From positions 31,336-95,335 of the forward strand of contig JAJFKK010000124.1 of the NCBI GenBank assembly GCA_021773245.1: a stretch of DNA of 64,000 nucleotides, in the 5' to 3' direction. Position numbers and translations under genes: made by a program. Under the pieces are notes generated by a model. It made no database searches. It saw only the letters and a program-made list of their open reading frames with translations, and was not told the origin of the DNA. The first letter of the stretch is position 1. Every line of letters starts with the position of its first letter. The stretch is from Gammaproteobacteria bacterium (GTDB taxonomy: Bacteria; Pseudomonadota; Gammaproteobacteria; Eutrophobiales; Eutrophobiaceae). Below are positions 38,499-56,480 of this stretch, one piece after another.

Positions 38499-38499
38499 T

Positions 38500-39996: not shown

Positions 39997-40046
39997 CCTA
40001 TAGCAACATATTATCTCTCGTTTGCTTTATCATTACAGTTTATACC

Positions 40047-40197
40047 CATGATACTTCGAAATGCAGGTTTATAGCACGCCTGTTTTCATCCAGAGCTGCG
40101 TTGCTCCTCCTTACAGGGAGCGGCCATGTGCGTCGTCTCGTCTAGCTCTGTATAAAAACAAACGCACTCTAAATCCAGCATTTCGAAGTATCATAGG
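40047..40197. repeat. About 150-bp element bounded by near-perfect 20-bp inverted repeats, upstream of pfp
   Basis: catgatacttcgaaatgcagg (40047-40067) versus ccagcatttcgaagtatcatag (40175-40196), with a 16-bp exact core. Internal sub-palindromes cagagct/agctctg and gctcc/ggagc. Confidence 0.45.
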
Positions 40198-40263
40198 TAT
40201 CTCACAACAAATAGACCGTATTTATTGCGATTTGTTTAAAAATATATCAGGAGAATTAAGAAT

Positions 40264-41529: not shown

Positions 41530-41538
41530 GTTCATAAG

Positions 41539-42156
41539 ATGTCAGACAAGTTATATTATGCTTACGATCCAATGTGTAGCTGGTGTTATGCATTCAGGCC
41601 AACATTCAATACGCTAATAGAGAAATTACCAAAGCAGCTTGAGGTTATTTCTTTACTAGGTGGTTTAGCAGTGGATAGTGATAAGCCCATGCCTGAAGAA
41701 ACGCAAGCGTTTGTAAAAGCGAATTGGCAAAGAATTGAAGAGCAGGTTCCGGGAACAAAATTTAATTATGATTTCTGGAAACATTGCCAGCCACGAAGAA
41801 GTACTTATCCGGCATGTCGGGCGGTTATTGCGGCTCGGGAGCAAGGCGAAGAATATGATCTAGAAATGATCTATGCCATTCAACAAGCGTATTATTTACA
41901 AGCTCGAAACCCTTCCGATATTACAACGCTATGTGAATTAGCCGTTGAGATTGGTTTGGATAAAGATAAGTTCGCTAATGATATTCAGTCATTGGAAGTA
42001 GATGAGATGTTGCGACAAGAAATAAAGCAATCACGACGTTTAGGATTAAATAGCTTTCCAGGGTTTTTGCTGGAAACAGCAAATCAGAGCGTCAGAATTG
42101 ATCCTGATTATTTGACTATTGATGTTATGTTGGAAAAGATAAACCGATATTTTTAA
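41539..42156 (+). CDS. DsbA-family thioredoxin-fold protein (COG3531-like predicted disulfide isomerase)
   Basis: YAYDPMCSWCYAF N-terminal CxxC in a DsbA/FrnE-like context. Confidence 0.7.
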   Translation: MSDKLYYAYDPMCSWCYAFRPTFNTLIEKLPKQLEVISLLGGLAVDSDKPMPEETQAFVKANWQRIEEQVPGTKFNYDFWKHCQPRRSTYPACRAVIAAREQGEEYDLEMIYAIQQAYYLQARNPSDITTLCELAVEIGLDKDKFANDIQSLEVDEMLRQEIKQSRRLGLNSFPGFLLETANQSVRIDPDYLTIDVMLEKINRYF

Positions 42157-42211
42157 TCATTAGATATTTTCTGTAACCTCAATACACTTTAATTTAAGAT
42201 AATAAAAAATA

Positions 42212-43837: not shown

Positions 43838-44090
43838 GCCAAAGCAAACTCCTTTCCCATAGGTGACCAAATATTTCTGTTTTCCAGTTTGAGAAAAGCA
43901 TCAATAATATAAGTGATTGATATTAATATATAATACTTCCTCTCCCCTTGTTTTTTGATAGCCAATTTCTTGAGTAATTGACCAAGAAAAGAAGTCTCTA
44001 AATCAGCTATAATTATATTTCTCATGGGCATAAGGACGTTGTTTGAGAGTAATACCGAAATAATAAAAATTATTAAATCCGGAATAAGAG

Positions 44091-45338
44091 ATGGCTGATA
44101 GTTTAATTGGGGAAATCATCGCCTGTCACGAGTGCGATAACCTGCATCATTATGAATTGATCCCTGTTGGTGCAAAAGCCAATTGCCTGCACTGTGGAAA
44201 TTTATTATATAGACACGTTCCCGATTCTATAAACCGAACTTTAGCCTTATATCTTACTGCTCTATTCCTTTTTATTATTGCTAATACCTTTCCTTTTCTT
44301 TCTCTTGAGCTAGGTGGCCGGGTAGTTGAGAATATTTTATTTTCCAGTGGTTGGGCGATGTATGAGTTAGGTATGGGTGAATTAGGCGTCCTTATTTTTT
44401 TAACGAGTATTTTGTTTCCGTTAATTGTTATTGTTGGCATGCTCTATTTATTAATACCTGCAAGTTTAGGGAAAGTTGCACCACATATGGGACAAGTCTA
44501 CCGTATTATCAATGCATTACTTCCCTGGAGTTTGATTGGTGTGTTTATGCTGGGTGTGTTGATAGGCATTGTTAAACTACAAGATCTGGCTAATGTCATT
44601 TTCGGCCCTGCAATTATTGCCTTAGCCTTATTATTGCTTGTCTATACTGCGGCGAGGGCAAGTTTTAATCCTCATGAATTATGGTCATTAACCGAACATA
44701 CATCGTTGGACCTTTCCAGTGATGAACTAGCGAATAAAAATATTATCAATTGTCATACTTGTGGTTTTCTTAGCCTCGAATCAGGTGAACATCAACATTG
44801 CTTACGATGTGATTCACAATTACATCATAGAATAAATAACAGTGTTGAAACGACATGGGCATTATTAATTTCAGCAGTTGTACTTCTAATACCAGCAAAT
44901 CTTTATCCGGTAATGACGGTGATACGTTTTGGTCAGGGCGAACCAAATACGATTTTGAGTGGTGTCCTGCATTTAATCGAATCTGGCATGTGGGGTTTGG
45001 CGATGATTGTATTTGTTGCCAGCATTGTCGTTCCAGTAACGAAATTAATTATTTTGAGTTTTTTATTAATTAGTGTTCAAAAAAAATCAGTTTGGCGTCC
45101 GCGCGACCGAACCTTGCTTTATCGTGTGACGGAAGTAGTTGGTGCCTGGTCTATGGTTGATATTTTTCTGGTTGGCTTGTTATCCGCATTAGTAAGTTTG
45201 GGTGCTTTATCAACAATACGTCCGGGAGTTGGTGCAATTTTCTTTGCCGGAGCAGTAGTAGTGACGATGTTTGCCGCGCAAAGTTTTGATTCGCGCCTGA
45301 TTTGGGATAATGTTAGGGAAAAAGAAACTGAAAATTAG
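44091..45338 (+). CDS. pqiA: Intermembrane transport protein PqiA
   Basis: Two PqiA repeats, each beginning with a CxxC...CxxC zinc-ribbon-like motif, and 8 TM. Confidence 0.85.
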   Translation: MADSLIGEIIACHECDNLHHYELIPVGAKANCLHCGNLLYRHVPDSINRTLALYLTALFLFIIANTFPFLSLELGGRVVENILFSSGWAMYELGMGELGVLIFLTSILFPLIVIVGMLYLLIPASLGKVAPHMGQVYRIINALLPWSLIGVFMLGVLIGIVKLQDLANVIFGPAIIALALLLLVYTAARASFNPHELWSLTEHTSLDLSSDELANKNIINCHTCGFLSLESGEHQHCLRCDSQLHHRINNSVETTWALLISAVVLLIPANLYPVMTVIRFGQGEPNTILSGVLHLIESGMWGLAMIVFVASIVVPVTKLIILSFLLISVQKKSVWRPRDRTLLYRVTEVVGAWSMVDIFLVGLLSALVSLGALSTIRPGVGAIFFAGAVVVTMFAAQSFDSRLIWDNVREKETEN

Positions 45339-45340
45339 AA

Positions 45341-47035
45341 ATGGAAATCTCAAGCCCAAAAGTTAGCAAACGTTCTGGCCCTTCTGTTGTCTGGATAATT
45401 CCATTCCTTACTTTGCTTGTCGGTGGCTGGCTAATAGTAAAAACGCTCTCCGAACAAGGCCCGCAGGCGAGTATTAGTTTTAAAACGGCGGAAGGCATTG
45501 AAGTAGGCAAGACTAAAATCAAATATAAGAGTGTTGATATTGGTGTTGTTGAACATATTAAATTTAGTGATGATTTTTCTAATGTCATTTTAACTGCGGA
45601 ATTTAGTCAAGGATCAGAGAAGTTCTTGCATCGCGGTACTCGCTTTTGGGTGGTTAAACCTCAACTTGGGTTACAAGGCGCGTCTGGATTGAGCACTTTA
45701 ATATCCGGCGCTTATATTGAAATTGAACCAGGGCCCGGTGCTCAACAACGGCATTTTATCGGTTTAGAAAAGCAACCTGTCATTAAAGCCGATGAACAGG
45801 GAAAGGAGATTGTATTAATTACGAATAAACTTGGTTCAATAGATCGAGGCTCGCCTATTTATTTTCAAGGTTTGCTAGCTGGTGAAGTTCTTGGTCATGA
45901 ACTCGGCAATGATCAGAAGAGTGTTTACATTCATGCTTTTATTAAAGATCCGTTTGATCAACTAATTCGTGGTAATACTAATTTTTGGAATGTTAGCGGT
46001 ATTAATGTCTCAATGAGTGCGGATGGCTTTAAAGTAAAAACCGAATCACTTCGCTCTATGATGTTTGGCGGTATCGCGTTTGATACACCGGAAACACTAG
46101 AGTTAGTCACGACTGATGTTGATAACCTGGTTTTTACTTTGCATGATAGTTTTGAAGCGATTCAGGAAAACTCTTATACCCGAAAGCTTAAGTTTATTAT
46201 GTTCTTTGACAGTTCAGTCCGTGGCTTAACTATTGGTGCGCCGGTTGAGTTTAAAGGTATTAAAGTTGGCTCTGTACTCGATGTTAGACTTGAATTTGAT
46301 AGTGATGACACATCATTTCGTATTCCAGTATTAATTGAAATTGAACTACAACGAATTATTGAACGTGGAAATGAAGATAGTGGTTCGACATATGAAACAT
46401 TGGGTAAATTAGTTGAGCGTGGACTTCGTGCGCGTTTGCAAACAGGGAGTTTGTTGACCAGCCAATTGTATGTTGAATTGGATATGCATCCTGATTCTCC
46501 CATCAATATTAGTGGTGAAGAAACAGCATTCCCAGAATTACCGACTTTACCAACAGCTAATTTTGGCGCAATAACTCAATCTGCTGAAAAATTATTGGCG
46601 AAACTAAATGCAATTGATATTGATAATGTTTCAACTGTATTACTTGAAACAATAACTAATGCAAATAGCACGTTGCAGATTGCAGACGAAACAATCACCA
46701 ACGCTAATGCGTTAATTACTTTACCAGGCATTCCGACGGCAATAGAAGATATGCAAGCTTCATTAAGTAATTTTAAAAATATAATGCAGAAAATAGATGC
46801 TTCTAATATTACAGAGGCGATCGATGCCGGTCATCTTGCTCTGGAAAGTTTAACCGTTACATTAGGTAAAACGAATAATATTTTAGAACCAAATTCACCG
46901 GCACAATATAACTTGATAAAACTAACTGGTGAACTTGAAGAGACCGCACGTTCAATACGATCATTGGTCGAGACTTTGGAGCGCAATCCGCAAGCTTTAA
47001 TTTTTGGCAAGGATAAAAAGGCCAAAGGAGAATAA
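45341..47035 (+). CDS. pqiB: Intermembrane transport protein PqiB (triple MCE domains)
   Basis: 564 aa, N-terminal TM, three MCE-like domains, C-terminal helical needle. Confidence 0.85.
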   Translation: MEISSPKVSKRSGPSVVWIIPFLTLLVGGWLIVKTLSEQGPQASISFKTAEGIEVGKTKIKYKSVDIGVVEHIKFSDDFSNVILTAEFSQGSEKFLHRGTRFWVVKPQLGLQGASGLSTLISGAYIEIEPGPGAQQRHFIGLEKQPVIKADEQGKEIVLITNKLGSIDRGSPIYFQGLLAGEVLGHELGNDQKSVYIHAFIKDPFDQLIRGNTNFWNVSGINVSMSADGFKVKTESLRSMMFGGIAFDTPETLELVTTDVDNLVFTLHDSFEAIQENSYTRKLKFIMFFDSSVRGLTIGAPVEFKGIKVGSVLDVRLEFDSDDTSFRIPVLIEIELQRIIERGNEDSGSTYETLGKLVERGLRARLQTGSLLTSQLYVELDMHPDSPINISGEETAFPELPTLPTANFGAITQSAEKLLAKLNAIDIDNVSTVLLETITNANSTLQIADETITNANALITLPGIPTAIEDMQASLSNFKNIMQKIDASNITEAIDAGHLALESLTVTLGKTNNILEPNSPAQYNLIKLTGELEETARSIRSLVETLERNPQALIFGKDKKAKGE

Positions 47036-47040
47036 TAATT

Positions 47041-47655
47041 ATGTGGAACACACGATATAAAGTAATAACTTTGTTATTTGTCGTTAGCTTATTAAGTGCG
47101 TGTATGGGAAGCGGCGCGACAACGCCAATAAGATATTACCTTGTTGAACCGGTAGAGTATCCAGGCAGATCACTTAAGGCAGTCAGGCCACTAAGTATAG
47201 AAATTCTTGATCTGCATATTCCTCAGTATCTGGAACGATTTCAGATTGCTTCACGCAGTAGTGAAAGTCGACTTGAGTTCTCTGATGATAATCAGTGGGG
47301 AGAAAACTTACGTAAGAATTTGCTACGAAGTATGGCGAGAAACTTATCAAGGCAGCTTTCAACGATTGATATAGGTACACCTTTGAATCGATCGTCATCA
47401 TTACCAGATTATCGTGTGCAAATTCATATTGAGCAATTTGAACAAGATATTGATAACAAGGTGAAGTTAATGGCTCGATGGCAATTAACCAGCGGTGAAG
47501 AATCAAAGTCACTTGGCGTATTTGGTGCTGAATTAGCAAGTGAACAAGTTATTGAAAAAGATAATTACGATCAAATGATCTTATCCATGCGTCAGCTATA
47601 CGGTGAGCTTAGTGAACGGATAGCCGATAGTATAATTGCCCAAGAAAATAATTAG
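47041..47655 (+). CDS. pqiC: PqiC/YmbA-family lipoprotein
   Basis: Lipobox LLSACMG and ABC-transport-auxiliary lipoprotein fold. Immediately after pqiB. Confidence 0.75.
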   Translation: MWNTRYKVITLLFVVSLLSACMGSGATTPIRYYLVEPVEYPGRSLKAVRPLSIEILDLHIPQYLERFQIASRSSESRLEFSDDNQWGENLRKNLLRSMARNLSRQLSTIDIGTPLNRSSSLPDYRVQIHIEQFEQDIDNKVKLMARWQLTSGEESKSLGVFGAELASEQVIEKDNYDQMILSMRQLYGELSERIADSIIAQENN

Positions 47656-48586
47656 AAAACTAACTGGGAAAGTTATACAAAATTTAACAATGAAACTCCG
47701 GTCTCAACAAAACACGGTTATCGTTGCACTTATGACTTCATGTCTATTTGTACAGAATAGTTTTGCTTTAATAAGTGAAGAAACTAGTGGCATTGAAATA
47801 ATGGAAGAAGTACAAAAACGACATCAGCAATTTCCTTATATTTATGAAGAACAGTCTATGGTTATGGAAGATAGACATGGTAAACGTGATACACGTAAAG
47901 CCAGACGTTATTCAAGAATGGAAGAAGATGGTTCGGTAAAGTTTCTTTTATTATTTGATTATCCAAAGGAAGTAAAAGGTGTTGCCTTGTTAGCTAATCG
48001 TGACGCGAATGGTAATACAAATAAATATATCTATTTGCCTGCATTAGGTGAACAGCTAATCGAAAGTACGGGTGAAGGAAGTAATGACAATTTTCTCGGC
48101 ACTGATTTTTCAGTTGAAAATTTAACAGGTGAAATACTTATTGAACATGCTTATGTTCGACGTAATGATAAAGAAATTAAAGGTATAAAATATTTTGTGA
48201 TTGATGTTTATAGTGCAAATGGACTCATGTCAGAAAAACAAGTTTTAAGACGACACTTTATTCAACAAGACAATCTATACATTACTCTTACTCATCATTT
48301 TGATAAGCAAGGTCGAGTTTCACGTATACAAAGTCACCATGATCTCAAGCCCGTTGATGGTGATATGTGGCGTGCTAACATGATTCTTATGGTAGATAAG
48401 AGAGAACGACATCAATCATTAATAAAAATATCAAAGCGAATTTTTTCGCATGATTATGTTCCGGCTGAAGTTTTTACCGCTAAGTGGTTATATGAAAATT
48501 ATCCTTATATTGAATCTCCGGATAATTCAGATGTTGAAGAAGATTCGGTAGTGTCGAACGAGACAACAGAGGAAAATGCAGAATGA
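47636..48586 (+). CDS. LolA-like outer-membrane lipoprotein-sorting family protein (partner of MMPL exporters)
   Basis: Signal peptide (likely true start near 47690, MKLRSQQ...). About 260-aa LolA-like periplasmic domain. Overlaps the downstream MMPL gene by 4 bp. Confidence 0.6.
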   Translation: MPKKIIRKLTGKVIQNLTMKLRSQQNTVIVALMTSCLFVQNSFALISEETSGIEIMEEVQKRHQQFPYIYEEQSMVMEDRHGKRDTRKARRYSRMEEDGSVKFLLLFDYPKEVKGVALLANRDANGNTNKYIYLPALGEQLIESTGEGSNDNFLGTDFSVENLTGEILIEHAYVRRNDKEIKGIKYFVIDVYSANGLMSEKQVLRRHFIQQDNLYITLTHHFDKQGRVSRIQSHHDLKPVDGDMWRANMILMVDKRERHQSLIKISKRIFSHDYVPAEVFTAKWLYENYPYIESPDNSDVEEDSVVSNETTEENAE

Positions 48587-51318
48587 TCGTAAAAATGTGT
48601 CTATTGGGTTATAAGCATCGTGTTCCAGTGACACTATTGTTGCTACTTGTAACCTTGTTTTCTCTTTTTGGCATGCAACGTTTACAAGTTGATACCGGTA
48701 TAGATAGTTTAATTCCTGCTGATGATCCTGCACGCCAGGTTTATCAAAGAGTCATGGGTGAATTTGGTACAGATAATAAAACCATTATCTATATTAAGGA
48801 TAAGAATTTATGGACGCCAGAAAAACTGACTCGAATTGAACAGCTACATCTGGCGGTAGAAAAAATTGAAGGAGTTACTCGAGTTGATAGCTTATTCAGC
48901 TTACATACGATTCATGGTGATGATGGTAAAATTGTTTCACGACCTGTATTACGATCTGCACCAAAAACAGAGGAAGATGCACTAAGTGCAAAAGAAAGCG
49001 CATTAGCTAACCCACTTTATCTTGGAAATTATTTCTCAAATGATGGTGAAGTAACAGCAATGATAGTTTCTGTTGCTGATGTAGAAGATAAAAATGATTT
49101 TAGTCGAACTATCTATCAAGCACTAGAAGATCAAATTGAAGTTCATCGTTCCGAGTTTAACCGCCTTACACAGGTTGGGCCACCAAGAATTAATGCTGAA
49201 TTAAAGCAGAGTCTTTATGAAGATTTCTTATTACTAGGGCCGTTGTCTGCCTTAATTCTGGTTCTGTCTATTTTAATATTTATGCGTAGTTGGTTATCTG
49301 CGATGGTGCCATTAGTAACGTCGTTGATAACTATTATCTGGACTTTTGGTCTATTAGGCTGGTTAGGTATTCCACTTAATATACTCAGCGCAATGATACC
49401 TTCATTAATTATTGTCATAGGATCAACCGAAGATACGCATTTGATGGCTGCATTTTTACGTGGTCTTGATGAAGATGTTGAAGGAGACTCTCGTCAGCAT
49501 GCGGTTAAATACATGGCAAAACATATTGGTTTGCCATTGGTTCTTACCGTGTTAACAACGGCAATGGGTTTTGCCAGTAATCTTTTTAGTAATATTGAGT
49601 TGATTCAACATTTCTCAATTGCGGCAACTTTCGCTATGTTGGCAAATGGTTTTATTACGGTGCTGGTTTTACCATTGATGCTGTCTTTGTTTGCTCCTGA
49701 TAAAAACATCAGTCTCGTTAAAGACAAGAATACAAAAAGTGTTCCTAATCGGATAATGAAATTATTTCGTTATTCTCAAGATCATTTTCCTTTGTCGACG
49801 TTGCTAGTAACCGCGGTCTTATGCATATTTTTTGTTATGCAGGCAGCCAAGTTATATGTCACAAATGATCCGCTTTCTTATTTTCCAAGCGATCGTCCAT
49901 TAATACAGGATGTTAAACAAATTCATGAAGATCTTGCTGGCGTAAAAATATTCTTTATATCGCTTGAATCTAAACAAGCTAAAGCATTTCAAGATCCAAA
50001 AAATATTAAAAAATTATCTGCGATACAGGAATTTCTTGATAGTCAGGGCGCTTATGATCGCACGATATCTTTAGCCGATCACTTGAAGTTTATGAATCGC
50101 GAATTTCGTAACACTTCTGTTGAGGGCTCTATCCCTGAAACGCGACAATTAGTTGCTCAGTACCTGATGTTTTTTCATCGTAGTGATTTGGATAGTTATG
50201 TCAGCCATGATTACAGTCGTGCCAATATTGTTGTACGTCATAACATTACGGACTCGCATACACTTAACCAATATATTGAAGAACTGGAAAGTGTTTTGGA
50301 GCAAATTGTTGGTCCAGATATGAGATCTTATATTGTTGGTGAAAATCTAATGGTAAATCACGCCGCTGAAAGTTTAATGGTGGAGCAAGTAAAAGCATTG
50401 GTTTTACTGATGACATTAATTTTCTTGATCATGTCGGCAATGTTTACTTCTTTTAAAGGTGGTTTTATTTCACTGGTACCAGCTATTATTCCAATTACCT
50501 TAATGTTTGGCATCATGGGCTTTCTTGATATTCCATTAAATCCGGGCACGGCGATGGTCGCCGTAATCGCAATTGGTATTGCAATTGATGGCACGATTCA
50601 TCTATTAGCGAGATACAATGAGCTTTGTCGTCGCACCTCTGATTATGTTGAGGCAGTTAATACGGCTGTGCAAGAAGAGGCCACGCCGCTTATTGTCTCG
50701 AGCATTGCACTTGCATTTGGATTTGGAATTTTAATCTTTTCAAATTTTACTATTGTTGCACAGTTTGGCGCTTTGGCTGCAGCAACAATGTTATTTTCTA
50801 TCTTTGCTAATCTTTTGATTACGCCGATAATAATGTCACGTATTCGCTTGATTGGTCTTTATCAAATTTTGGCAATGTCAGTCGATCGTGAAGTTCTTGA
50901 CGGTAGTCCGTTATTACAAAACATGACCAACTATCAGCGGCGTAAAGCAATTCTAATATCAGAACTACATGAATTTGAAAAAGGAGAATTACTTGTAGAG
51001 CAGGATACAATTGGTCGAGATATGTATCTTATACTTTCTGGTGAAGTAGAAGTAATTCGAAAAGATGATGGTGAATCTCGTTCATTGGCTGTTTTGAAAC
51101 CGGGACAAATTTTTGGTGAGATTGGTTATATTCGTGAAACTGAAAGAACAGCGGATGTATTAGCGCTAGAGAATGTTTCAGCCTTACGTTTTGACTATGA
51201 ACGTATGCAAAAAGACTTAAAGTTTTTTCCAAATATTGTTGCTAAGCTAAATTTCAATATTAGTTATATCCTCGGTAAACGCTTGGCAGATATGGTCGGT
51301 AGCTCGAAAAGTAAATAA
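48583..51318 (+). CDS. MMPL/RND-superfamily exporter (COG1033-like, 12 TM, two periplasmic loops) fused to a C-terminal cyclic-nucleotide-binding (CAP-type) domain
   Basis: 911 aa. Two 6-TM bundles with SSD-like cores. C-terminal about 135 aa (approximately 50905-51315) carries FGEIGYI...RTADV, the hallmark cNMP-binding beta-roll/phosphate-binding cassette. Confidence 0.8.
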   Translation: MIVKMCLLGYKHRVPVTLLLLLVTLFSLFGMQRLQVDTGIDSLIPADDPARQVYQRVMGEFGTDNKTIIYIKDKNLWTPEKLTRIEQLHLAVEKIEGVTRVDSLFSLHTIHGDDGKIVSRPVLRSAPKTEEDALSAKESALANPLYLGNYFSNDGEVTAMIVSVADVEDKNDFSRTIYQALEDQIEVHRSEFNRLTQVGPPRINAELKQSLYEDFLLLGPLSALILVLSILIFMRSWLSAMVPLVTSLITIIWTFGLLGWLGIPLNILSAMIPSLIIVIGSTEDTHLMAAFLRGLDEDVEGDSRQHAVKYMAKHIGLPLVLTVLTTAMGFASNLFSNIELIQHFSIAATFAMLANGFITVLVLPLMLSLFAPDKNISLVKDKNTKSVPNRIMKLFRYSQDHFPLSTLLVTAVLCIFFVMQAAKLYVTNDPLSYFPSDRPLIQDVKQIHEDLAGVKIFFISLESKQAKAFQDPKNIKKLSAIQEFLDSQGAYDRTISLADHLKFMNREFRNTSVEGSIPETRQLVAQYLMFFHRSDLDSYVSHDYSRANIVVRHNITDSHTLNQYIEELESVLEQIVGPDMRSYIVGENLMVNHAAESLMVEQVKALVLLMTLIFLIMSAMFTSFKGGFISLVPAIIPITLMFGIMGFLDIPLNPGTAMVAVIAIGIAIDGTIHLLARYNELCRRTSDYVEAVNTAVQEEATPLIVSSIALAFGFGILIFSNFTIVAQFGALAAATMLFSIFANLLITPIIMSRIRLIGLYQILAMSVDREVLDGSPLLQNMTNYQRRKAILISELHEFEKGELLVEQDTIGRDMYLILSGEVEVIRKDDGESRSLAVLKPGQIFGEIGYIRETERTADVLALENVSALRFDYERMQKDLKFFPNIVAKLNFNISYILGKRLADMVGSSKSK

Positions 51319-51433
51319 TTTTATTATTCACTGGCATTCTATAAAATACAATTATCCGTTTTTCAAACAATTAATTATTAATGACCTCCTCTGTTTCGTA
51401 AAAGCTAGTCTTGGTTTTTTAATTAGTCCTTAT

Positions 51434-52066
51434 TTGGTTAATAAAATGAAATCAGTTATTAAAAAAAATATTATCTTATTGATTATTCTTTTATCAGCAG
51501 GACATACAGGGTTCGCATTTTCAGAAACAAGGGGAAAAGAGCTTTTCCCTGATAATATTATTGTTGAATATAATAATGAAAAATTAGATTTGTCATTGAC
51601 GGGTATAGCTATTCGAAAGAAATTTTTTCTAAAAATTTATAGGATGGCTCATTATCTTGAACAGAACTCCAGAATGTCATTCAAAAATAATGAGATCTAT
51701 TCATCTATATTGCAACATAGTGGTGCAAAGCAAATCTCGATGGTTTTTCTGCGGTCCTTGGCGGCGAAGCAGATTCAGGACTCCTTGATAACGGGTCTTA
51801 AATTGAATATGAAAGAAGAAGATTATTTGCAAATTCTGCCTAATGTCGAGATTTTCATGCGTGCGATCTATGAAGATGTTAAAGAAAACGATGAATTTGT
51901 CATTCGATGGCATCCTGATGGTACAATGGTCTCACTTTTTCAGGGTAAAGAGATCAGTTCAATCAAGGATGAGAACTTTGCCAAAGCGTTATGGTCTATC
52001 TGGTTTGGTGATTTCTCAGTCGTAGATCGCGATTTACTTATAAAAGAACTGTTAACTAGTTCCTAA
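51434..52066 (+). CDS. Chalcone-isomerase-like (fatty-acid-binding) family secreted protein
   Basis: Signal peptide and LTGIAIRKKFFLKIYRMAHYLE, typical of bacterial CHI-like domain proteins. Confidence 0.55.
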   Translation: MVNKMKSVIKKNIILLIILLSAGHTGFAFSETRGKELFPDNIIVEYNNEKLDLSLTGIAIRKKFFLKIYRMAHYLEQNSRMSFKNNEIYSSILQHSGAKQISMVFLRSLAAKQIQDSLITGLKLNMKEEDYLQILPNVEIFMRAIYEDVKENDEFVIRWHPDGTMVSLFQGKEISSIKDENFAKALWSIWFGDFSVVDRDLLIKELLTSS

Positions 52067-52195
52067 ATTGTTTTAGTGAGTTTGTAAATAATTCTTTATA
52101 ATTTCCTGAGAAGGTTTATATTCCTGAATTCATTTCCTGATAGTTGCCATCCTGTCAAGATAATCAAAGAGTTACGTAAATTAAGAACATATTAG

Positions 52196-53005
52196 ATGAA
52201 AATTATTAAAGGTGAACTAAGCCACGGGCGATTTATTGTCCCATATCGAATTTATGGCGAAGCGAAGAAGACGATTGTTTGTATTAGTGGTGCAAAACAG
52301 ACAATGGCAGCTTGGCGTTCATTTGTTAGTCACTTCGTTTCCGAATACTCAGTCGTATTATTTGATATGCCTGGTCAAGGTAGAGCCTCAATTTTATCTG
52401 GTTCTTTAGGCATTACTTTCGATGAGCAAGTTGATGTTTTATATAATATTATTAATGAAACTAATCGAAATGGTACGGTTATATTAGCGGCAGCATCATG
52501 GGGAACAATTATCTCTGCAGCGATTGCAGCGCGTTACCCTGAATTAGTCGATAAAATGATCCTGGGTAGTTTTGGAGCTAAACCAAGCAAAGCGGTCATT
52601 GATATTATTAAAGCAGGACAAGGTTTGTTTAATGGTGATAAAACTGAACAGATTGCGCCTTTAATGATAGAAAAATTTGGTCAACATATTCCTGCCACTC
52701 AGAAAAAACAGATGATCGACCAATTTCGAGATATGAGTCGAGAACAGTTTGTCAGTTTTTACGAACATTGTGAATTTGTCGAAAAAGCATCTGATATTGA
52801 AGAATATATAGAATTAGGCAAGATTACAGCTTCGACGCTTATTTTGAGCGGTGAATATGATGCGATTCTTGATCAGGACGATATTGAAAAAGCGTCATCA
52901 AAGATTCCTGACTGTGAGTATAAAATGATTCCAGGTGCGGGGCATTTTTTACATTGGGAGCAATCAGACATTCTTTATACTTATAGCGAGTTCCTTTCCA
53001 GATAA
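52196..53005 (+). CDS. Alpha/beta-hydrolase fold protein
   Basis: Nucleophile elbow AASWG and C-terminal GAGHFLHWE His region. Confidence 0.7.
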   Translation: MKIIKGELSHGRFIVPYRIYGEAKKTIVCISGAKQTMAAWRSFVSHFVSEYSVVLFDMPGQGRASILSGSLGITFDEQVDVLYNIINETNRNGTVILAAASWGTIISAAIAARYPELVDKMILGSFGAKPSKAVIDIIKAGQGLFNGDKTEQIAPLMIEKFGQHIPATQKKQMIDQFRDMSREQFVSFYEHCEFVEKASDIEEYIELGKITASTLILSGEYDAILDQDDIEKASSKIPDCEYKMIPGAGHFLHWEQSDILYTYSEFLSR

Positions 53006-53007
53006 GA

Positions 53008-53856
53008 TTGTCAATGTCTATTAAGCTTTCACCTGTTGATAAAGTTTCGTCTATCGAACAGGAATCATTTCTTGCTTCATATTATAAACCTTTAAAGCCT
53101 GTTGTTATTCAGGAACCTTCAAAACCATGGCCGGCATTTAAAAAGTGGACTCCGGAATTCTTTAAAGAGCAGCATGGTAACAAACAAGTCAAAGTTTATG
53201 ACGGCAGTTTTGTTGTGGCTGGAAAGAATTATATGTCTAATGCAAAAACTATATCTTTTAAAAAGTATATTGATTTAGTAATGACGACTTCACAAGATCT
53301 TCGTATGTTTCTCTACAATATTAAATCAGAAATTCCAGAGTTAGTTGATGATATTAATTTTCCAACATTAATTAATAATGTTTCAAAAAGTTTTGTATTT
53401 ATGTTTTTCGGTTGTAAAAATTCAGTAACACAAATGCATTTTGATATTGATATGTCGCATGTTTTCCATACAGCGATACGTGGCCGAAAAACAGTTTATT
53501 TATTTCCTTATGAAGAGTCTAAAAACCTACACCGCTATCCGTTTACCTGTAGAAGTTATGTTGATGTTGAAAAACCGGATTTTGAAAAATACCCCGGGTT
53601 GAGAAAAGCACAAGGCTATAAGGTTCAGCTTGAAGCAGGCGAGACCTTATATATTCCGAGCGGTTATTGGCATCACTTTGTTTATGATGAAGCAGCTTAT
53701 GCAATATCGCTTCGATGTGCTAATCAGACATTGTTGGGTAAAGTTCATGGCTTTTATAATTTAATCATAATGCAAAGCATTGATCGTATAATGAATAAAA
53801 TCTTTCCGAAGAATTGGTTTGAGTGGAAAGAGGAACAAGCGTTAAAAGCTAATTAA
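53008..53856 (+). CDS. JmjC/cupin-8-like Fe(II)/2-oxoglutarate oxygenase-fold protein
   Basis: HFDID...H...HHF putative HxD/E...H facial triad in a cupin fold. 2 bp after the hydrolase gene. Confidence 0.6.
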   Translation: MSMSIKLSPVDKVSSIEQESFLASYYKPLKPVVIQEPSKPWPAFKKWTPEFFKEQHGNKQVKVYDGSFVVAGKNYMSNAKTISFKKYIDLVMTTSQDLRMFLYNIKSEIPELVDDINFPTLINNVSKSFVFMFFGCKNSVTQMHFDIDMSHVFHTAIRGRKTVYLFPYEESKNLHRYPFTCRSYVDVEKPDFEKYPGLRKAQGYKVQLEAGETLYIPSGYWHHFVYDEAAYAISLRCANQTLLGKVHGFYNLIIMQSIDRIMNKIFPKNWFEWKEEQALKAN

Positions 53857-53863
53857 TTTGAAA

Positions 53864-54376
53864 TCAAGCTAAAATTAATTCTTTAATTATTCTCCATTCT
53901 GAAAGTTTTTTCTCTCTACTCATAGCAGCATGTGCTGGACTAGTAGAAGGTAATTTGTGAAACGTTAAGTTTTCAGCATCTTTTAAAGTTTTTAAAACTT
54001 CTTTCTTAAAAAGTTGTTCTGCCTTAGCGCCATTAAAGAATACATTATTTATTTTCGGAAACTTTATAAAGAACGATTTAAAATCATTAGCTTCAATTGT
54101 TGATGGGTCAATATCTGAATCAAGACTGCCTTTTCGATAGCAACTTTTTAATACATCCCATAATGCAATATTGTTGTCGTACAATAATTGCTTACGTTGC
54201 TCATAATTTATTTTTTCATCAGAATTAAATAACTCACATATTATAGGCCAAAAACTATTACGTGGATGAGCATAGTATTGGTTTTCATCAAGTGATTTTT
54301 GTCCCGGCATAGAGCCGAGTATCAGTATCGTTGCATCTGGTTTTGCTATAGAAGGAAAGCCATTACTATCTGTCAT
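53864..54376 (-). CDS. DNA-deoxyinosine (hypoxanthine) glycosylase, UDG-superfamily
   Basis: ILILGSMPG ... HPRNSFW ... PSTSPA motifs of family-6 UDG-like glycosylases. Confidence 0.7.
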   Translation of the reverse strand: MTDSNGFPSIAKPDATILILGSMPGQKSLDENQYYAHPRNSFWPIICELFNSDEKINYEQRKQLLYDNNIALWDVLKSCYRKGSLDSDIDPSTIEANDFKSFFIKFPKINNVFFNGAKAEQLFKKEVLKTLKDAENLTFHKLPSTSPAHAAMSREKKLSEWRIIKELILA

Positions 54377-54390
54377 TTATGTTTTCCCAT

Positions 54391-54425
54391 AAAAAAAGCC
54401 GCATCATGATGATGCGGCTTTTTAC
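54391..54425 (-). terminator. Rho-independent terminator downstream of hppA
   Basis: On the minus strand, aaaaagccgcatcatcatgatgcggc is followed by uuuuuuu. A perfect 11-bp GC-rich stem plus U-run, 16 nt after the hppA stop. Confidence 0.7.
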
Positions 54426-54440
54426 TAATAGCAGTACAAT

Positions 54441-56480
54441 CTAAACTAACAATGGAGCAATCACTAAACTAACAATTGCCATTACATTAATCAGAATGTT
54501 CATTGCTGGACCAGAGGTATCCTTTAATGGATCACCAACGGTATCACCAACAACAACAGCAGCATGAAGATCTGTTCCTTTGCCACCAAGGTTACCTTTT
54601 TCAACATACTTCTTAGCGTTGTCCCAGGCACCACCCGCGTTTGCCATCATCAGTGCCATCATCACACAACAGATTAATGCGCCGCCCAACATGCCGCCTA
54701 AAGCTTGTGGACCAAGACCGAAGCCAACGACAACAGGAGCAAGTACCGCTAGTGAACCCGGAGCAATCATGCGTTTTAATGCAGCACGAGTTGCAATATC
54801 AATACAACGTGCATTATCAGGTTGTGCTGTACCTTCCATTAAACCAGGGATTTCTTTGAATTGGCGACGTATTTCCTTAATCATTTCAAAAGCCGCATCA
54901 CCAACCGCTGTCATGGTCATAGAGCTAACCAGGAATGGAAAAATACCGCCAAGGAACATGCCGCAAAGAACAATTGGATCATCAATTCTTAAGATAAGCT
55001 CTTCGCTTCCTCCAGATGCTTCATGTAAGGCTAGAGACACTTTCTCAATATAAGCACTGATTAATGCCAGCGCTGCAAGTGCAGCCGCACCAATAGCAAA
55101 GCCCTTACCGATTGCAGCAGTAGTATTTCCTACTTCATCAAGTGAATCAGTAATCTCACGTGTCTCTTTACCCATCCCAGACATTTCCGCAATACCACCG
55201 GCGTTATCTGCAACGGGGCCATACGCGTCAATTGCCATGGTAATGCCAACAGTACTCAACATACCAACAGCTGCAATACCAACACCGTAAAGACCAGCAT
55301 AATGACTCGCTGTAAAGATAATGGCGCAGATTGTAATAACAGGGATAGCTACCGATTGCATGCCTATTGCTAGACCACTAATCATCACGGTAGCAGGTCC
55401 TGTTTCACCGTCTTTTGCAATCTTTCTGACTGGAGCACCGCCGGTGTAATACTCGGTGACAAGGCCGATAACAATACCGCCTAAAGCACCTGAAATTACA
55501 GCTATCCAAACATTGGTAGAAGCTCCCATGTAACAAATCAATACATATGCAGCGATGATAAAAATAATAGAAGAACCCATCGTACCAATACGTAATGCTG
55601 TTTCAGGGCTTTTTGATGAAAAAAGTTTTACTGAGTAAATACCTATCATCGAACAAATCAAACCAACAGAAGCAAGGGCTAATGGCATAAAGGTTAATGT
55701 GCCTGTATCGCCTTCAGGTGCTAAGTTAGCTACTTCGGCTAAAGTCATCGTAGCTGCTAGAGCAATCGTTGCGATCATCGCACCACAATATGATTCAAAA
55801 ATATCAGAACCCATACCGGCAACGTCACCGACATTATCACCAACGTTATCTGCAATAACGCCAGGGTTACGTGGGTCATCTTCTGGGATGCCCGCTTCAA
55901 TCTTACCAACCAAATCAGCACCGACGTCAGCACACTTGGTAAAAATACCGCCACCAACACGTGAGAACAAAGCAACTGAAGATGCGCCCATAGCGAAACC
56001 TTCAATAGCGTGAATAGTATGTGTATCACCTGCGAAGAAATAGTAAAGAATACCAACACCAAATAAGCCCATTGCTGCAACTGTTAGTCCCATAATAGAA
56101 CCACCGAAGAATGCAATGTTTAAGGCTTCAGCTGCACCTTTGGTGTTCGCAGCAACCGCTGTTCTAACGTTAGCGTGAGTTGCGGTATACATGCCCCAAT
56201 AGCCCGCTGAACCTGAGCATACTGCACCAAGTAAAAAGGCCAATGCGGTATTCATACCTAAATCAGACATAGCAATCGCAGTAATACAAACTACGCAAAA
56301 TATAGCTAAACGTTTATATTCGCTGTTCATAAAGACCATTGCGCCTAAATGGATAGCATCAGAAATTTCTTTTAATTTTCCCTCACCGGCAGGTGATTTT
56401 TTAATACTGACAAAAACTAGAAAAGCGGCAAAAAGGCCGAATATGCCCAAACCAATGGGTATAAAAGCAATTGAATTCAT
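54441..56480 (-). CDS. hppA: Membrane-bound proton/sodium-translocating pyrophosphatase
   Basis: 679 aa, about 16 TM, with conserved DVGADLVGK and [11 protein letters not shown] motifs. Confidence 0.95.

What the first reader, a model, noticed from the sequence alone, without database searches (positions are those of the whole stretch)
47636..53856. Compact lipid-handling locus: LolA-like, MMPL-cNMP, CHI-like fatty-acid-binding protein, alpha/beta hydrolase and JmjC-like oxygenase
Five co-directional, tightly spaced genes combine a periplasmic lipid chaperone (LolA-like), an inner-membrane exporter, a chalcone-isomerase-like fatty-acid-binding secreted protein, a serine hydrolase and a cupin/JmjC Fe(II) oxygenase. 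The content suggests synthesis or modification (hydroxylation, deacylation) of a lipid or hydrophobic metabolite followed by export to the outer membrane. No polyketide or fatty-acid synthase genes are present, so this is not an aryl-polyene cluster. The product is unknown.
Basis: inference. Interest (0 to 1): 0.6.

Follow-up and report, generated by a model that had tools for sequence, protein, structure and literature searches.

The report
Two lipid gene modules, side by side
The five flagged genes are real, but they are the meeting point of two separately conserved gene sets; the more notable one couples the PqiABC membrane-bridging lipid conduit to a proton-driven, cyclic-nucleotide-sensing pump and a periplasmic lipid chaperone, a combination I found described nowhere.

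Summary
All five ORFs and all five family calls are confirmed (LolA_like, MMPL/RND with a C-terminal cNMP domain, Chalcone_3, alpha/beta hydrolase, Cupin_8/JmjC). The five genes are not one conserved unit. Comparison with 135 related loci shows two independent modules. Module A is pqiA-pqiB-pqiC-LolA-like-RND-cNMP (44091-51318). All four upstream genes are collinear with the RND in 41/41 metagenome loci with enough flank (RND identity 57-87%). Only 1/41 has the hydrolase and cupin downstream. Module B is (CHI-like)-hydrolase-cupin (51446-53856). The hydrolase directly precedes the cupin in 44/50 loci, in about ten unrelated contexts. CHI is present in 17/40 and is a decaying pseudogene in three close relatives. 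Only 4/31 have module A upstream. A sister lineage is collinear with the window over 16 kb but lacks exactly pqiABC-LolA-RND-CHI. The hydrolase's nearest solved relative is RhlA, an acyl-ACP-dependent lipid acyltransferase, at 24% identity. The cupin keeps an intact iron-binding triad. Best reading: module A is an energised, cNMP-gated variant of the Pqi lipid transporter. Module B is an uncharacterised enzyme pair, possibly making a hydroxylated fatty-acyl product. Coupling between the modules is not supported.

The parts
44091..45338 (+). pqiA, the inner-membrane subunit of the Pqi lipid transport system (module A, gene 1)
   Evidence: Pfam PqiA at 304 bits. NCBIfam TIGR00155 pqiA_fam at 282.8 bits, above its 260.35 cut-off. 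Collinear with the RND in 41/41 loci.
45341..47035 (+). pqiB, the periplasm-spanning MCE protein with three MCE (MlaD) domains (module A, gene 2)
   Evidence: Pfam MlaD in 3 stretches. NCBIfam PqiB equivalog at 478 bits, just below its 525 cut-off. The gap to pqiA is 2 nt.
47041..47655 (+). pqiC-like outer-membrane lipoprotein (module A, gene 3)
   Evidence: Pfam ABC_trans_aux at 97 bits. Lipobox LLSAC is visible in the sequence. Present upstream of the RND in 68/68 loci.
47690..48586 (+). Soluble periplasmic LolA-like protein (module A, gene 4). The ORF could start at TTG 47636, but ATG 47690 is the likely start.
   Evidence: Pfam LolA_like at 79 bits. PDB relatives 3bk5 and 9tp6, E about 1e-12. 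Signal peptide present and Cys not conserved. Adjacent to the RND in 74/74 loci. Its stop overlaps the RND start by 4 nt.
48583..50889 (+). RND/MMPL (HAE3-like) membrane transporter domain (module A, gene 5, residues 1 to about 769)
   Evidence: Pfam MMPL, Sterol-sensing and Patched. Best NCBIfam match is HAE3 TIGR00921, below its cut-off. Invariant TM4 GSTEDTH and TM10 GIAIDGTIH motifs. A low-confidence model matches only lipid-type RNDs: MmpL3/4/5, NPC1, Patched, HpnN.
50890..51318 (+). C-terminal cytoplasmic cyclic-nucleotide-binding domain, fused to the RND (residues about 770-911)
   Evidence: Pfam cNMP_binding at 69 bits. PDB profile hits to PKG, PKA and SthK CNB domains, E about 1e-14. 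Phosphate-binding cassette FGE...R(T/V)A conserved. The fusion is present in all listed homologues.
51446..52066 (+). Secreted CHI-fold (Chalcone_3) protein, a facultative first gene of module B
   Evidence: Pfam Chalcone_3 at 89 bits. AF2 model with pLDDT 76; Foldseek matches CHI, CHIL, FAP and Aim18p at TM about 0.6. Weak profile hit to AtFAP3. Upstream of ABH in 17/40 loci. Pseudogenised in L005, L007 and L011.
52196..53005 (+). Cytoplasmic alpha/beta-fold enzyme, distantly RhlA/PhaG-like (module B core)
   Evidence: Pfam Abhydrolase_1. Family profile against PDB: RhlA 8ik2 at 97.9 bits, next best 66.5. 24% identity, nearly gapless over 233 aa. Ser101/Asp222/His250 invariant. Median 76% identity across loci.
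53014..53856 (+). Cytoplasmic JmjC/Cupin_8 Fe(II)/2-oxoglutarate oxygenase (module B core)
   Evidence: Pfam Cupin_8 at 111 bits. H142-x-D144...H220/H221 invariant. The best solved relatives are JMJD5, TYW5 and FIH. ABH lies immediately upstream in 44/50 loci, and immediately downstream in 2 more.

Best explanation
The flagged interval is the junction of two separately inherited gene modules that happen to be neighbours in this lineage.

Module A (44091-51318) is a five-gene operon: pqiA, pqiB, pqiC, a LolA-like gene and an RND-cNMP gene. [quoted passage not shown] Fixed to it are a soluble periplasmic LolA-like lipid chaperone and a lipid-type RND/MMPL transporter. That transporter keeps the acidic transmembrane motifs used for proton coupling and carries a cytoplasmic cyclic-nucleotide-binding domain.

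My proposed mechanism for module A is inferred, not shown. The RND uses the proton-motive force to lift a membrane lipid out of the inner membrane. It passes the lipid to the LolA-like protein and/or into the PqiB tunnel for delivery at PqiC. cAMP or cGMP binding to the C-terminal domain switches the flux on or off. This would give an otherwise passive Pqi conduit both direction and regulation.

Module B (51446-53856) is a cytoplasmic enzyme pair, often preceded by a secreted CHI-fold binding protein. The pair is an RhlA/PhaG-like alpha/beta-fold enzyme and a JmjC Fe(II)/2OG oxygenase. I propose, also by inference, that the alpha/beta enzyme takes a (hydroxy)acyl thioester such as acyl-ACP and releases or condenses it. 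The oxygenase would hydroxylate the substrate or the product. The CHI-fold protein, where present, would bind the resulting amphiphile in the periplasm.

Nothing requires module B's product to be module A's cargo.
For: Organisation (shown):

- In 80 metagenome loci found with the RND profile, LolA-like is adjacent in 74/74 and pqiC is upstream in 68/68. pqiA-B-C-LolA are all collinear in 41/41, at RND identity 57-87%. ABH+cupin lie downstream in only 1/41.
- Four independently gene-called loci give the same picture, including 4.7 Mb and 2.8 Mb contigs. In each, the LolA stop overlaps the RND start.
- In 52 genome loci found with the cupin profile, ABH is immediately upstream in 44/50 and immediately downstream in 2 more. 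CHI is upstream in 17/40 and module A upstream in 4/31.
- Module B's flanks are unrelated housekeeping genes in about ten different contexts.
- L138 and L139 are collinear with the window from SoxZ to the PPase, except for the six-gene block pqiABC-LolA-RND-CHI.
- The gaps in the window (253 | 2, 5, 34, -4 | 127 | 129 | 8 nt) fall at the module borders.

Parts (shown):

- Pfam and NCBIfam calls.
- The cNMP phosphate-binding cassette and the TM4/TM10 acidic motifs are invariant.
- The RND model matches only lipid-type RNDs.
- The LolA-like protein is soluble and periplasmic.
- The ABH profile is closest to RhlA by 31 bits, with an invariant Ser-Asp-His triad.
- The cupin HxD...H triad is invariant.
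- The CHI fold is confirmed.

Precedent (literature):

- LolA-like plus RND act as lipid-to-outer-membrane transport sets in ApeLMN (PMC8253772) and AmeABCD (PMC6394551).
- PqiABC is passive and bidirectional in vitro, and PMF coupling in vivo is explicitly left open (bioRxiv 10.64898/2026.09.15.751761).
Against: - No experiment or interaction prediction links the RND or the LolA-like protein physically to PqiABC. Co-transcription could reflect only shared regulation.
- The RND falls below the NCBIfam HAE3 cut-off, and its model is poor (pLDDT 61), so its cargo class is inferred from fold class alone.
- The ABH is only 24% identical to RhlA. Bona fide RhlA and PhaG proteins share 35-50%, and no rhlB-like gene is present.
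- All characterised relatives of the cupin hydroxylate proteins or tRNA, not lipids.
- CHI-fold proteins can bind haem as well as fatty acids (8ew8 Aim18p appears among the fold hits).
- The two modules are adjacent and co-directional, with no predicted terminator between them, in several related genomes. CHI travels with module A in the indel against the sister lineage. Some coupling in this particular clade therefore cannot be excluded.
Confidence: 0.6

Rival explanations
1. LolA-like, RND-cNMP, CHI-like, hydrolase and oxygenase form one operon. The two enzymes make or tailor a lipid, which the CHI-like protein binds and the RND/LolA pair (with Pqi) exports to the outer membrane.
For: - The genes are adjacent and co-directional in the window and in L002, L004 and L059.
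- No terminator-like site lies in the 127-nt and 129-nt gaps.
- Both halves have a lipid flavour: RhlA-like ABH, CHI/FAP fold, and a lipid-type RND with a LolA-like partner.
- CHI is gained or lost together with module A relative to L138.
Against: - Only 1/41 RND loci has ABH-cupin downstream, and only 4/31 ABH-cupin loci have the RND upstream.
- ABH-cupin persists unchanged without module A in a collinear sister lineage and in about ten other contexts.
- CHI decays to a pseudogene while both flanking modules stay intact.
- The largest intergenic gaps sit exactly at the proposed joins.
Confidence: 0.15
2. In module A the genes are co-regulated but mechanistically separate. The LolA-like/RND pair is a self-sufficient exporter of a hydrophobic compound, like AmeABCD or HpnN. 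It shares a promoter with pqiABC only because both answer the same envelope stress.
For: - HAE3-type RNDs such as HpnN can work without a bridging complex, and LolA-superfamily partners occur with RNDs in systems that lack MCE proteins.
- E. coli PqiABC functions as a three-protein complex.
Against: - The five-gene order is invariant in 41/41 loci down to 57% RND identity and across different flanking contexts.
- The genes are tightly packed (2, 5, 34 and -4 nt). This is more than shared regulation usually preserves.
- Among the 80 loci retrieved, no RND-cNMP orthologue was found without pqiC upstream wherever the flank was long enough (68/68).
Confidence: 0.25
3. Module B has nothing to do with lipids. 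The JmjC protein is a protein (or RNA) hydroxylase like its characterised relatives. The alpha/beta-fold protein is its partner or a peptide/ester hydrolase acting on the same macromolecule. CHI-like is an unrelated periplasmic neighbour.
For: - The closest solved relatives of the cupin are JMJD5, TYW5, FIH and JMJD7, which are all protein or tRNA hydroxylases.
- Sequence conservation is unusually high for small-molecule enzymes: ABH median 76%, cupin 70%.
- A relative is fused to an effector-associated domain, EAD11.
- CHI is dispensable.
Against: - The ABH family profile prefers RhlA, an acyl-ACP-using lipid acyltransferase, by 31 bits over any other structure, and the alignment includes the cap domain. 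High conservation is also expected for an ACP-docking enzyme.
- CHI-ABH-cupin recurs in the same order in Gammaproteobacteria of several orders and in Nitrospiraceae.
- Lipid genes recur nearby. An Mpo1-like 2-hydroxy-fatty-acid dioxygenase gene sits next to the pair in Methylococcales, and a patatin gene in Nitrospiraceae.
Confidence: 0.25

Closest known systems
E. coli PqiABC (paraquat-inducible MCE lipid transport system)
   Same: It has the same three components in the same order. PqiA is an integral inner-membrane protein. PqiB has three MCE domains. PqiC is a lipoprotein of the ABC_trans_aux family.
   Different: Here the operon invariably continues into a LolA-like periplasmic protein and an RND-cNMP transporter (41/41). 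PqiB and PqiC score below the NCBIfam equivalog cut-offs. E. coli Pqi has no dedicated energy-coupling or nucleotide-sensing subunit.
ApeL/ApeM/ApeN of aryl-polyene clusters (LolA-like chaperone + RND transporter + LolB-like acceptor)
   Same: A LolA-like periplasmic protein is paired with an RND transporter and proposed to move a lipid to the outer membrane (PMC8253772).
   Different: There is no surrounding ketosynthase, ACP or dehydratase biosynthetic cluster and no DUF3261 LolB-like gene. The outer-membrane end is PqiB/PqiC instead. The RND also carries a cNMP domain.
AmeABCD and HpnN (HAE3-family RND systems for hydrophobic compounds and hopanoids)
   Same: The best NCBIfam match of the RND is HAE3. 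AmeD also works with a LolA-superfamily periplasmic protein and an outer-membrane component (PMC6394551). HpnN appears among the fold matches.
   Different: The score is below the HAE3 cut-off (219 against 352 bits) and far below the HpnN equivalogs. The partners are PqiABC, not DUF1302, DUF1329 or COG4447 proteins. The C-terminal cNMP domain is absent from those systems.
RhlA / PhaG (3-hydroxyacyl-ACP-dependent HAA synthase / transacylase)
   Same: RhlA is the nearest solved structure by a wide margin. The alignment is collinear through core and cap, and the Ser-Asp-His triad aligns.
   Different: Identity is 24%, against 35-50% within the RhlA/PhaG family. No rhlB or rhlC glycosyltransferase or PHA genes are nearby. 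The partner is a JmjC oxygenase, which is unknown for RhlA or PhaG.
JMJD5 / FIH / TYW5-type JmjC (Cupin_8) 2-oxoglutarate oxygenases
   Same: It has the Cupin_8 fold, an HxD...H iron triad, and full-length alignment to JMJD5 at E 1e-23.
   Different: It is a single-domain bacterial protein locked in a gene pair with an alpha/beta-fold enzyme. Its substrate is unknown. This neighbourhood is not among the bacterial JmjC contexts surveyed by Iyer et al. 2010.
Plant FAP / CHI-fold fatty-acid-binding proteins (AtFAP1, AtFAP3) and yeast Aim18p
   Same: It has a Chalcone_3 domain and a CHI fold at TM about 0.6. The only PDB sequence-profile hit is AtFAP3.
   Different: It is a bacterial protein with a signal peptide, so it is periplasmic. 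Identity to any solved member is 11-18%. The ligand (fatty acid, haem or other) is undetermined.

Membership tests
PqiABC (MCE) intermembrane lipid transport system | PqiA-family integral membrane subunit | tested here: met
   PF04403 at 304 bits. TIGR00155 at 282.8 bits, above its 260.35 cut-off.
PqiABC (MCE) intermembrane lipid transport system | PqiB with three tandem MCE domains, passing the PqiB equivalog model | tested here: inconclusive
   Three MlaD stretches are present. NF008070 scores 478 bits against a 525 cut-off, so it is close but below.
PqiABC (MCE) intermembrane lipid transport system | PqiC-type outer-membrane lipoprotein encoded after pqiB | tested here: met
   PF03886 at 97 bits, and a lipobox LLSAC is visible. 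The NCBIfam pqiC 'exception' model scores only 38 against 200, so this is a divergent orthologue.
PqiABC (MCE) intermembrane lipid transport system | A stand-alone three-gene operon, as in E. coli | tested here: not met
   The operon is extended by LolA-like and RND-cNMP genes in 41/41 loci.
HAE3 family of RND transporters (TIGR00921; HpnN, AmeD) | Passes the family HMM cut-off | tested here: not met
   TIGR00921 scores 219.5 against 351.9. The HpnN models score 110 against 752 and 51 against 1100. HAE3 is still the best-scoring RND family.
HAE3 family of RND transporters (TIGR00921; HpnN, AmeD) | RND architecture with paired TM4/TM10 charged motifs and lipid-type periplasmic domains | tested here: inconclusive
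   Invariant GSTEDTH and GIAIDGTIH motifs are present. Foldseek matches MmpL, NPC1, Patched and HpnN, but the model pLDDT is only 61.
Cyclic-nucleotide-binding (CAP/PKA-type) domain | cNMP_binding HMM match plus a phosphate-binding cassette with Gly-Glu and Arg-Thr/Ser-Ala | tested here: met
   PF00027 at 69 bits. FGEIGYIRE..R(T/V)A is conserved. Actual nucleotide binding was not tested.
LolA_like / TP_0789-like periplasmic proteins (PF17131) | HMM match above the cut-off, and an exported soluble protein | tested here: met
   79 bits against a cut-off of 30. PDB relatives are 3bk5 and 9tp6. Signal peptide present, with no conserved lipobox Cys.
Aryl-polyene ApeLMN-type export set | Embedded in a KS/ACP/DH biosynthetic cluster with a DUF3261 LolB-like gene | tested here: not met
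   No such genes occur within about 10 kb. For comparison see PMC8253772.
RhlA/PhaG acyltransferases | Ser-Asp-His triad in an alpha/beta fold with an RhlA-like cap | tested here: met
   S101, D222 and H250 are invariant. The alignment to 8ik2 is nearly gapless through the cap. RhlA is the top PDB hit by 31 bits.
RhlA/PhaG acyltransferases | Sequence identity in the family range (35-50%) and glycolipid (rhlB) or PHA gene context | tested here: not met
   Identity is 24%, against the 35-50% reported in PMC7054101. No rhlB-like gene is present in any of the 52 loci.
RhlA/PhaG acyltransferases | Uses (R)-3-hydroxyacyl-ACP to form HAA or 3-hydroxyacyl-CoA | not testable with these tools
   This needs an enzyme assay or heterologous expression with LC-MS.
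JmjC / Cupin_8 Fe(II)/2OG oxygenases | Cupin_8 HMM match and an HxD/E...H metal triad | tested here: met
   PF13621 at 111 bits. H142, D144 and H220/H221 are invariant in 24 sequences. JMJD5 aligns at E 1e-23.
CHI-fold fatty-acid-binding proteins (FAP; Chalcone_3) | Chalcone_3 HMM match and a CHI fold | tested here: met
   PF16036 at 89 bits against a cut-off of 27. Foldseek probability is 1.0 and TM about 0.6 to CHI, CHIL and FAP.
CHI-fold fatty-acid-binding proteins (FAP; Chalcone_3) | Binds a fatty acid | not testable with these tools
   The fold search does not separate FAP from enzymatic CHI or haem-binding Aim18p. The only sequence hit is AtFAP3 at E 0.014.

The most novel reading that the evidence does not exclude
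In a broad group of marine and aquatic Gammaproteobacteria (and relatives binned elsewhere), PqiABC is not a passive three-protein conduit but an obligate five-protein machine. A proton-driven RND lipid pump with a cyclic-nucleotide switch, plus a LolA-like adaptor, would feed or drain the PqiB tunnel. That would supply the directionality and regulation so far missing from models of MCE-tunnel lipid transport. The neighbouring RhlA-like/JmjC pair would separately define a new route to hydroxylated acyl lipids.
Probability: 0.3. Interest if true: 0.8.

Novelty: new variant of a known kind. Interest (0 to 1): 0.55.

Why it matters
How Gram-negative bacteria move phospholipids between their two membranes is an active, unsettled question, and so are the direction and energy source of that movement. 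The newest in-vitro work shows PqiABC behaving as a passive, bidirectional conduit. It explicitly leaves open a coupling to the proton-motive force in vivo.

An operon that, in every one of 41 informative loci, welds pqiABC to three further elements makes that question testable:

- a transporter of the proton-driven RND lipid-pump class;
- a cytoplasmic cyclic-nucleotide sensor fused to that transporter;
- a periplasmic lipid chaperone.

It names the candidate energy-coupling and regulatory subunits and the residues to mutate (E283/D284, D669, and R855 of the cNMP cassette). A second-messenger-gated lipid transporter in the envelope would also be a new kind of link between signalling and membrane homeostasis.

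The second module is a smaller prize. It is a strongly conserved, completely uncharacterised pairing of an RhlA-like enzyme with a JmjC oxygenase. If it is lipid-directed, it would be an early example of a bacterial JmjC enzyme working in lipid metabolism.

Tried and rejected
- **Promoter and terminator scan of 43400-54600.** The counts were no higher than in shuffles (39 against 42 promoter-like sites, 8 against 7 terminator-like sites). No + strand terminator lies in the junction gaps. This gives no evidence either way on transcript boundaries.
- **Rfam scan of 43500-54600 at E <= 0.1.** Nothing was found, so the 127-129 nt gaps hold no known riboswitch or leader.
- **Base composition.** The locus genes are 33-39% GC against 39.3% for the window, so there is no island signature.
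- **Rosetta-stone search with the cupin profile in 1.84 billion representatives.** The family is compact (77 clusters at E <= 1e-30). One EAD11-cupin fusion (P0371) was found. One distant cupin+ABH-like protein (P0487) was found, but its hydrolase part has no specific similarity to this ABH family (hhalign probability 0.2%). I rejected P0487 as evidence.
- **DUF6116.** This small gene sits next to pqiA in L054, L055 and L082, and next to CHI in the L006 clade. I considered it a possible shared partner of both modules. It is within 1.5 kb of pqiA in only 3/37 module-A loci, so I rejected it as a general link.
- **RND structure prediction.** The model has pLDDT 61 and pTM 0.46. I used it only for fold class, not for pocket or interface inference.
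- **Sequence search of CHI-like against PDB.** The single sequence gave no hit. The profile gave only AtFAP3 at E 0.014.
- **Look-up of the window's own cupin (P0104) to name the source assembly.** It was not on record. The organism is inferred only as a sulfur-oxidising gammaproteobacterium, from SoxYZ and from the Thiotrichaceae-labelled relatives.
- **Literature.** Nine full-text searches found no paper linking Pqi with LolA-like or RND genes, and none linking a JmjC with an RhlA-like enzyme. Iyer et al. 2010 on bacterial JmjC neighbourhoods does not mention this context.
- **Aryl-polyene cluster.** I considered and rejected this, because there are no KS, ACP or DH genes.
- **NCBIfam.** It gave no model for the LolA-like, CHI-like or cupin proteins.

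Full report
**1. What is in the sequence**

Each matches the stated Pfam family above the gathering score.

| Gene | Pfam family | Score |
|---|---|---|
| LolA-like | LolA_like PF17131 | 79 bits |
| RND | MMPL PF03176, with Sterol-sensing and Patched matches | 112 bits |
| RND C-terminus | cNMP_binding PF00027 | 69 bits |
| CHI-like | Chalcone_3 PF16036 | 89 bits |
| Hydrolase (ABH) | Abhydrolase_1 PF00561 | 76 bits |
| Cupin | Cupin_8 PF13621 / JmjC | 111 bits |

The gene calls on an identical public contig (L001) put the likely starts at 47690, 51446 and 53014.

A complete pqiA (44091-45338), pqiB (45341-47035, three MCE domains) and pqiC (47041-47655, lipobox LLSAC) run straight into the LolA-like gene.

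Gene spacing is uneven. The large gaps are where the comparative data place the module borders.

| Junction | Gap (nt) |
|---|---|
| SulP -> pqiA | 253 |
| pqiA -> pqiB | 2 |
| pqiB -> pqiC | 5 |
| pqiC -> LolA-like | 34 |
| LolA-like -> RND | -4 (overlap) |
| RND -> CHI | 127 |
| CHI -> ABH | 129 |
| ABH -> cupin | 8 |

The promoter/terminator scan and the Rfam scan added nothing. Base composition is unremarkable.

**2. Synteny test from the cupin side**

The cupin is highly conserved, at about 70% identity over hundreds of clusters, with an invariant H142-x-D144...H220/H221 triad. A scan of one genome per species with the cupin profile returned 52 loci with 10-kb flanks. They come from several orders of Gammaproteobacteria: Thiotrichaceae, Methylococcales, Alteromonas and Woeseiaceae. 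Others are from Nitrosomonas, Nitrospiraceae, Nitrospinaceae, Binatia, Planctomycetota, Verrucomicrobiota and a Synechococcus.

I mapped the eight window proteins onto these loci.

| Feature | Loci with it / loci with enough flank |
|---|---|
| ABH immediately upstream of the cupin | 44/50 |
| ABH immediately downstream of the cupin | 2 more |
| CHI-like gene upstream of ABH | 17/40 |
| RND upstream of ABH | 4/31 |

What flanks (CHI)-ABH-cupin differs from lineage to lineage and consists of unrelated housekeeping genes:

- PpnN, rhodanese and DUF6116;
- SulP;
- PFK;
- glutamate synthase;
- a PP2C-kinase and NirB;
- SAM decarboxylase;
- RNase E;
- KatG.

ABH is the best-conserved protein of the whole region. 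Median identity to the window is 76% for ABH, 70% for the cupin and 57% for CHI.

**3. Synteny test from the RND side**

The RND-cNMP fusion is itself a large, uniform orthologue group. Its members are about 910 aa, always carry the cNMP domain, and are at least 70% identical over the 120 listed clusters.

Four divergent members on long contigs were gene-called independently, including contigs of 4.7 Mb and 2.8 Mb and a Nitrospinota-labelled MAG. All four show pqiA-pqiB-pqiC-LolA-like-RND with the LolA stop overlapping the RND start. Their downstream genes are unrelated.

A metagenome scan with the RND profile gave 80 more loci.

| Feature | Loci with it / loci with enough flank |
|---|---|
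| LolA-like adjacent | 74/74 |
| pqiC upstream | 68/68 |
| All four upstream genes collinear (RND identity 57-87%) | 41/41 |
| ABH+cupin downstream | 1/41 |

**4. How the two modules came to be neighbours**

Upstream of pqiA the window carries SoxZ, SoxY, an M48/TPR protease, PFK, a DsbA-like protein and SulP. A sister lineage (L009, L013, L017, L138 and L139; contigs of 1.07 and 1.49 Mb) has the same genes in the same order. These are followed directly by ABH, cupin, the DNA glycosylase and the H+-PPase. The only difference over more than 16 kb is the six-gene block pqiABC-LolA-RND-CHI.

In three close relatives that keep module A next to ABH-cupin (L011, L005, L007), the RND-ABH gap contains frame-shifted fragments of the CHI gene. 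In L011 these are 76% identical over 34 aa and 82% over 17 aa. CHI is therefore being lost repeatedly while both neighbours stay intact.

Taken together, the parts are gained and lost independently. The adjacency of modules A and B is confined to a shallow clade.

**5. Module A, parts and mechanism**

- **PqiABC.** It is the known envelope-spanning MCE system.
- **LolA-like protein.** It has an ordinary signal peptide and no conserved lipobox cysteine, so it is soluble and periplasmic. Its solved relatives are two uncharacterised 'lipoprotein-sorting' proteins, 3bk5 and 9tp6.
- **RND classification.** Its best NCBIfam family is HAE3, but it scores below the cut-off. By sequence it has no close solved relative in the membrane part.
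- **RND fold class.** A low-confidence model (pLDDT 61) matches only lipid-handling RNDs: MmpL3/4/5, NPC1/NPC1L1/NCR1, Patched, Dispatched and HpnN.
- **RND motifs.** The acidic TM4 and TM10 motifs GSTEDTH and GIAIDGTIH are invariant. From general knowledge of RND, Patched and MmpL transporters, these positions form the proton relay.
- **cNMP domain.** It aligns to PKG, PKA and SthK domains and keeps the phosphate-binding cassette.

LolA-like plus RND pairs are already proposed as lipid-to-outer-membrane shuttles in aryl-polyene clusters (ApeL/M/N). HAE3 RNDs work with LolA-superfamily proteins in AmeABCD.

The newest Pqi study finds passive, bidirectional phospholipid exchange in vitro and leaves PMF coupling in vivo open.

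I therefore infer a five-protein machine. The RND extracts lipid using the PMF under cNMP control. The LolA-like protein and/or the PqiB tunnel carry the lipid across the periplasm. The gene organisation and motifs are shown. The physical coupling, the cargo and the direction of transport are inferred.

**6. Module B, parts and mechanism**

ABH and the cupin have no signal peptides, so they are cytoplasmic. CHI-like has one, so it is periplasmic.

- **ABH.** The single sequence hits RhlA (8ik2, HAA synthase) at 70 bits, against 45 or less for generic esterases. With a 15-sequence family profile the margin grows to 97.9 against 66.5 bits. The alignment is 24% identical but almost gapless through core and cap, and the Ser-Asp-His triad is aligned and invariant.
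- **Limits on the RhlA link.** True RhlA and PhaG proteins share 35-50% identity and sit with rhlB or PHA genes. Neither holds here, so this is a sister family, not an RhlA.
- **Cupin.** Its solved relatives are protein or tRNA hydroxylases. Its neighbourhood is not among those catalogued for bacterial JmjC proteins.
- **CHI-like.** The CHI fold is confirmed, but the ligand class is not resolved.
- **Nearby lipid genes.** An Mpo1-like 2-hydroxy-fatty-acid dioxygenase gene lies next to the pair in Methylococcales. A patatin gene lies next to it in Nitrospiraceae.

My working model is release or condensation of an acyl thioester by ABH, hydroxylation by the JmjC enzyme, and optional periplasmic binding by CHI-like. 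This is inference with modest confidence. A protein-hydroxylase reading remains a serious rival.

**7. Verdict**

What is new is the invariant pqiABC-LolA-like-RND-cNMP operon. I could not find it described in nine full-text literature searches. It is a new variant of a known kind of system, and it bears directly on how Pqi-type conduits are energised and regulated. The RhlA-like/JmjC pair is a second, smaller lead.

Noticed in passing
window 44091-47655: A complete pqiA-pqiB-pqiC set lies directly upstream of the flagged interval and runs into the LolA-like gene (gaps of 2, 5 and 34 nt). It proved to be the true conserved partner of LolA-like/RND.
   Followed up: yes
L011:8755-9160, L005:8610-9179, L007:488-974: Frame-shifted remnants of the CHI-like gene sit between the RND and ABH genes in three close relatives. 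CHI is being lost by decay while its neighbours stay intact.
   Followed up: yes
window 37735-43837 compared with L138:2820-8827: SoxZ, SoxY, M48/TPR (BepA-like) protease, PFK, DsbA-like and SulP are collinear with a sister lineage that lacks exactly pqiABC-LolA-RND-CHI. SoxYZ marks the organism as a probable sulfur oxidiser. The sister contigs are only 1.07-1.5 Mb, which may mean reduced genomes.
   Followed up: partly
window 53864-56480 compared with L138:10951-13787: A DNA-deoxyinosine glycosylase (TIGR04274, 169 bits) is convergent with the cupin, 7 nt away. The H+-pyrophosphatase next to it is on the - strand in the window but on the + strand in the sister lineage, which indicates a local inversion. 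With the nearby PFK, this hints at PPi-based energy metabolism.
   Followed up: no
L054:4942-5193, L055:5124-5399, L082:5131-5370; L006:2439-2708 and L010, L016, L019, L025, L038: A small DUF6116 membrane protein is divergent from pqiA in three module-A loci and co-directional just upstream of CHI/ABH in one module-B clade. It is within 1.5 kb of pqiA in only 3/37 module-A loci, so this is probably coincidental or a relic of older synteny.
   Followed up: yes
P0371 (484 aa, metagenomic protein): A relative of the cupin (E 8e-54) is fused to an N-terminal EAD11 'effector-associated domain', typical of conflict and signalling systems. This suggests that the JmjC family can be deployed as an effector on macromolecules.
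   Followed up: partly
L029:11128-11577, L023, L052; L041:5797-7668, L042: An Mpo1-like (2-hydroxy-fatty-acid dioxygenase family) gene is convergent with the cupin in three Methylococcales loci. A patatin-like phospholipase gene is divergent from CHI in two Nitrospiraceae loci. These are recurrent lipid-related neighbours of module B.
   Followed up: no
L057:6263-8506: PqiB is 747 aa in the Nitrospinota-labelled locus, against about 550-565 aa elsewhere, with a faint 'Helical_needle' match. This may be a longer tunnel for a wider periplasm.
   Followed up: no
L044:10001-11761, L050:10001-12342: In a Nitrospinaceae locus and one Methylococcales locus the gene order is reversed (cupin then ABH), at 48-55% identity. 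The pair is kept but the order is not, which argues for functional linkage rather than mere inheritance of an operon.
   Followed up: no
window 43525-44031 (-), 47183-47539 (-), 54580-55053 (+): Several long antisense or overlapping ORFs in the mechanical ORF list have low-complexity translations and overlap well-supported genes. They are almost certainly not genes.
   Followed up: no
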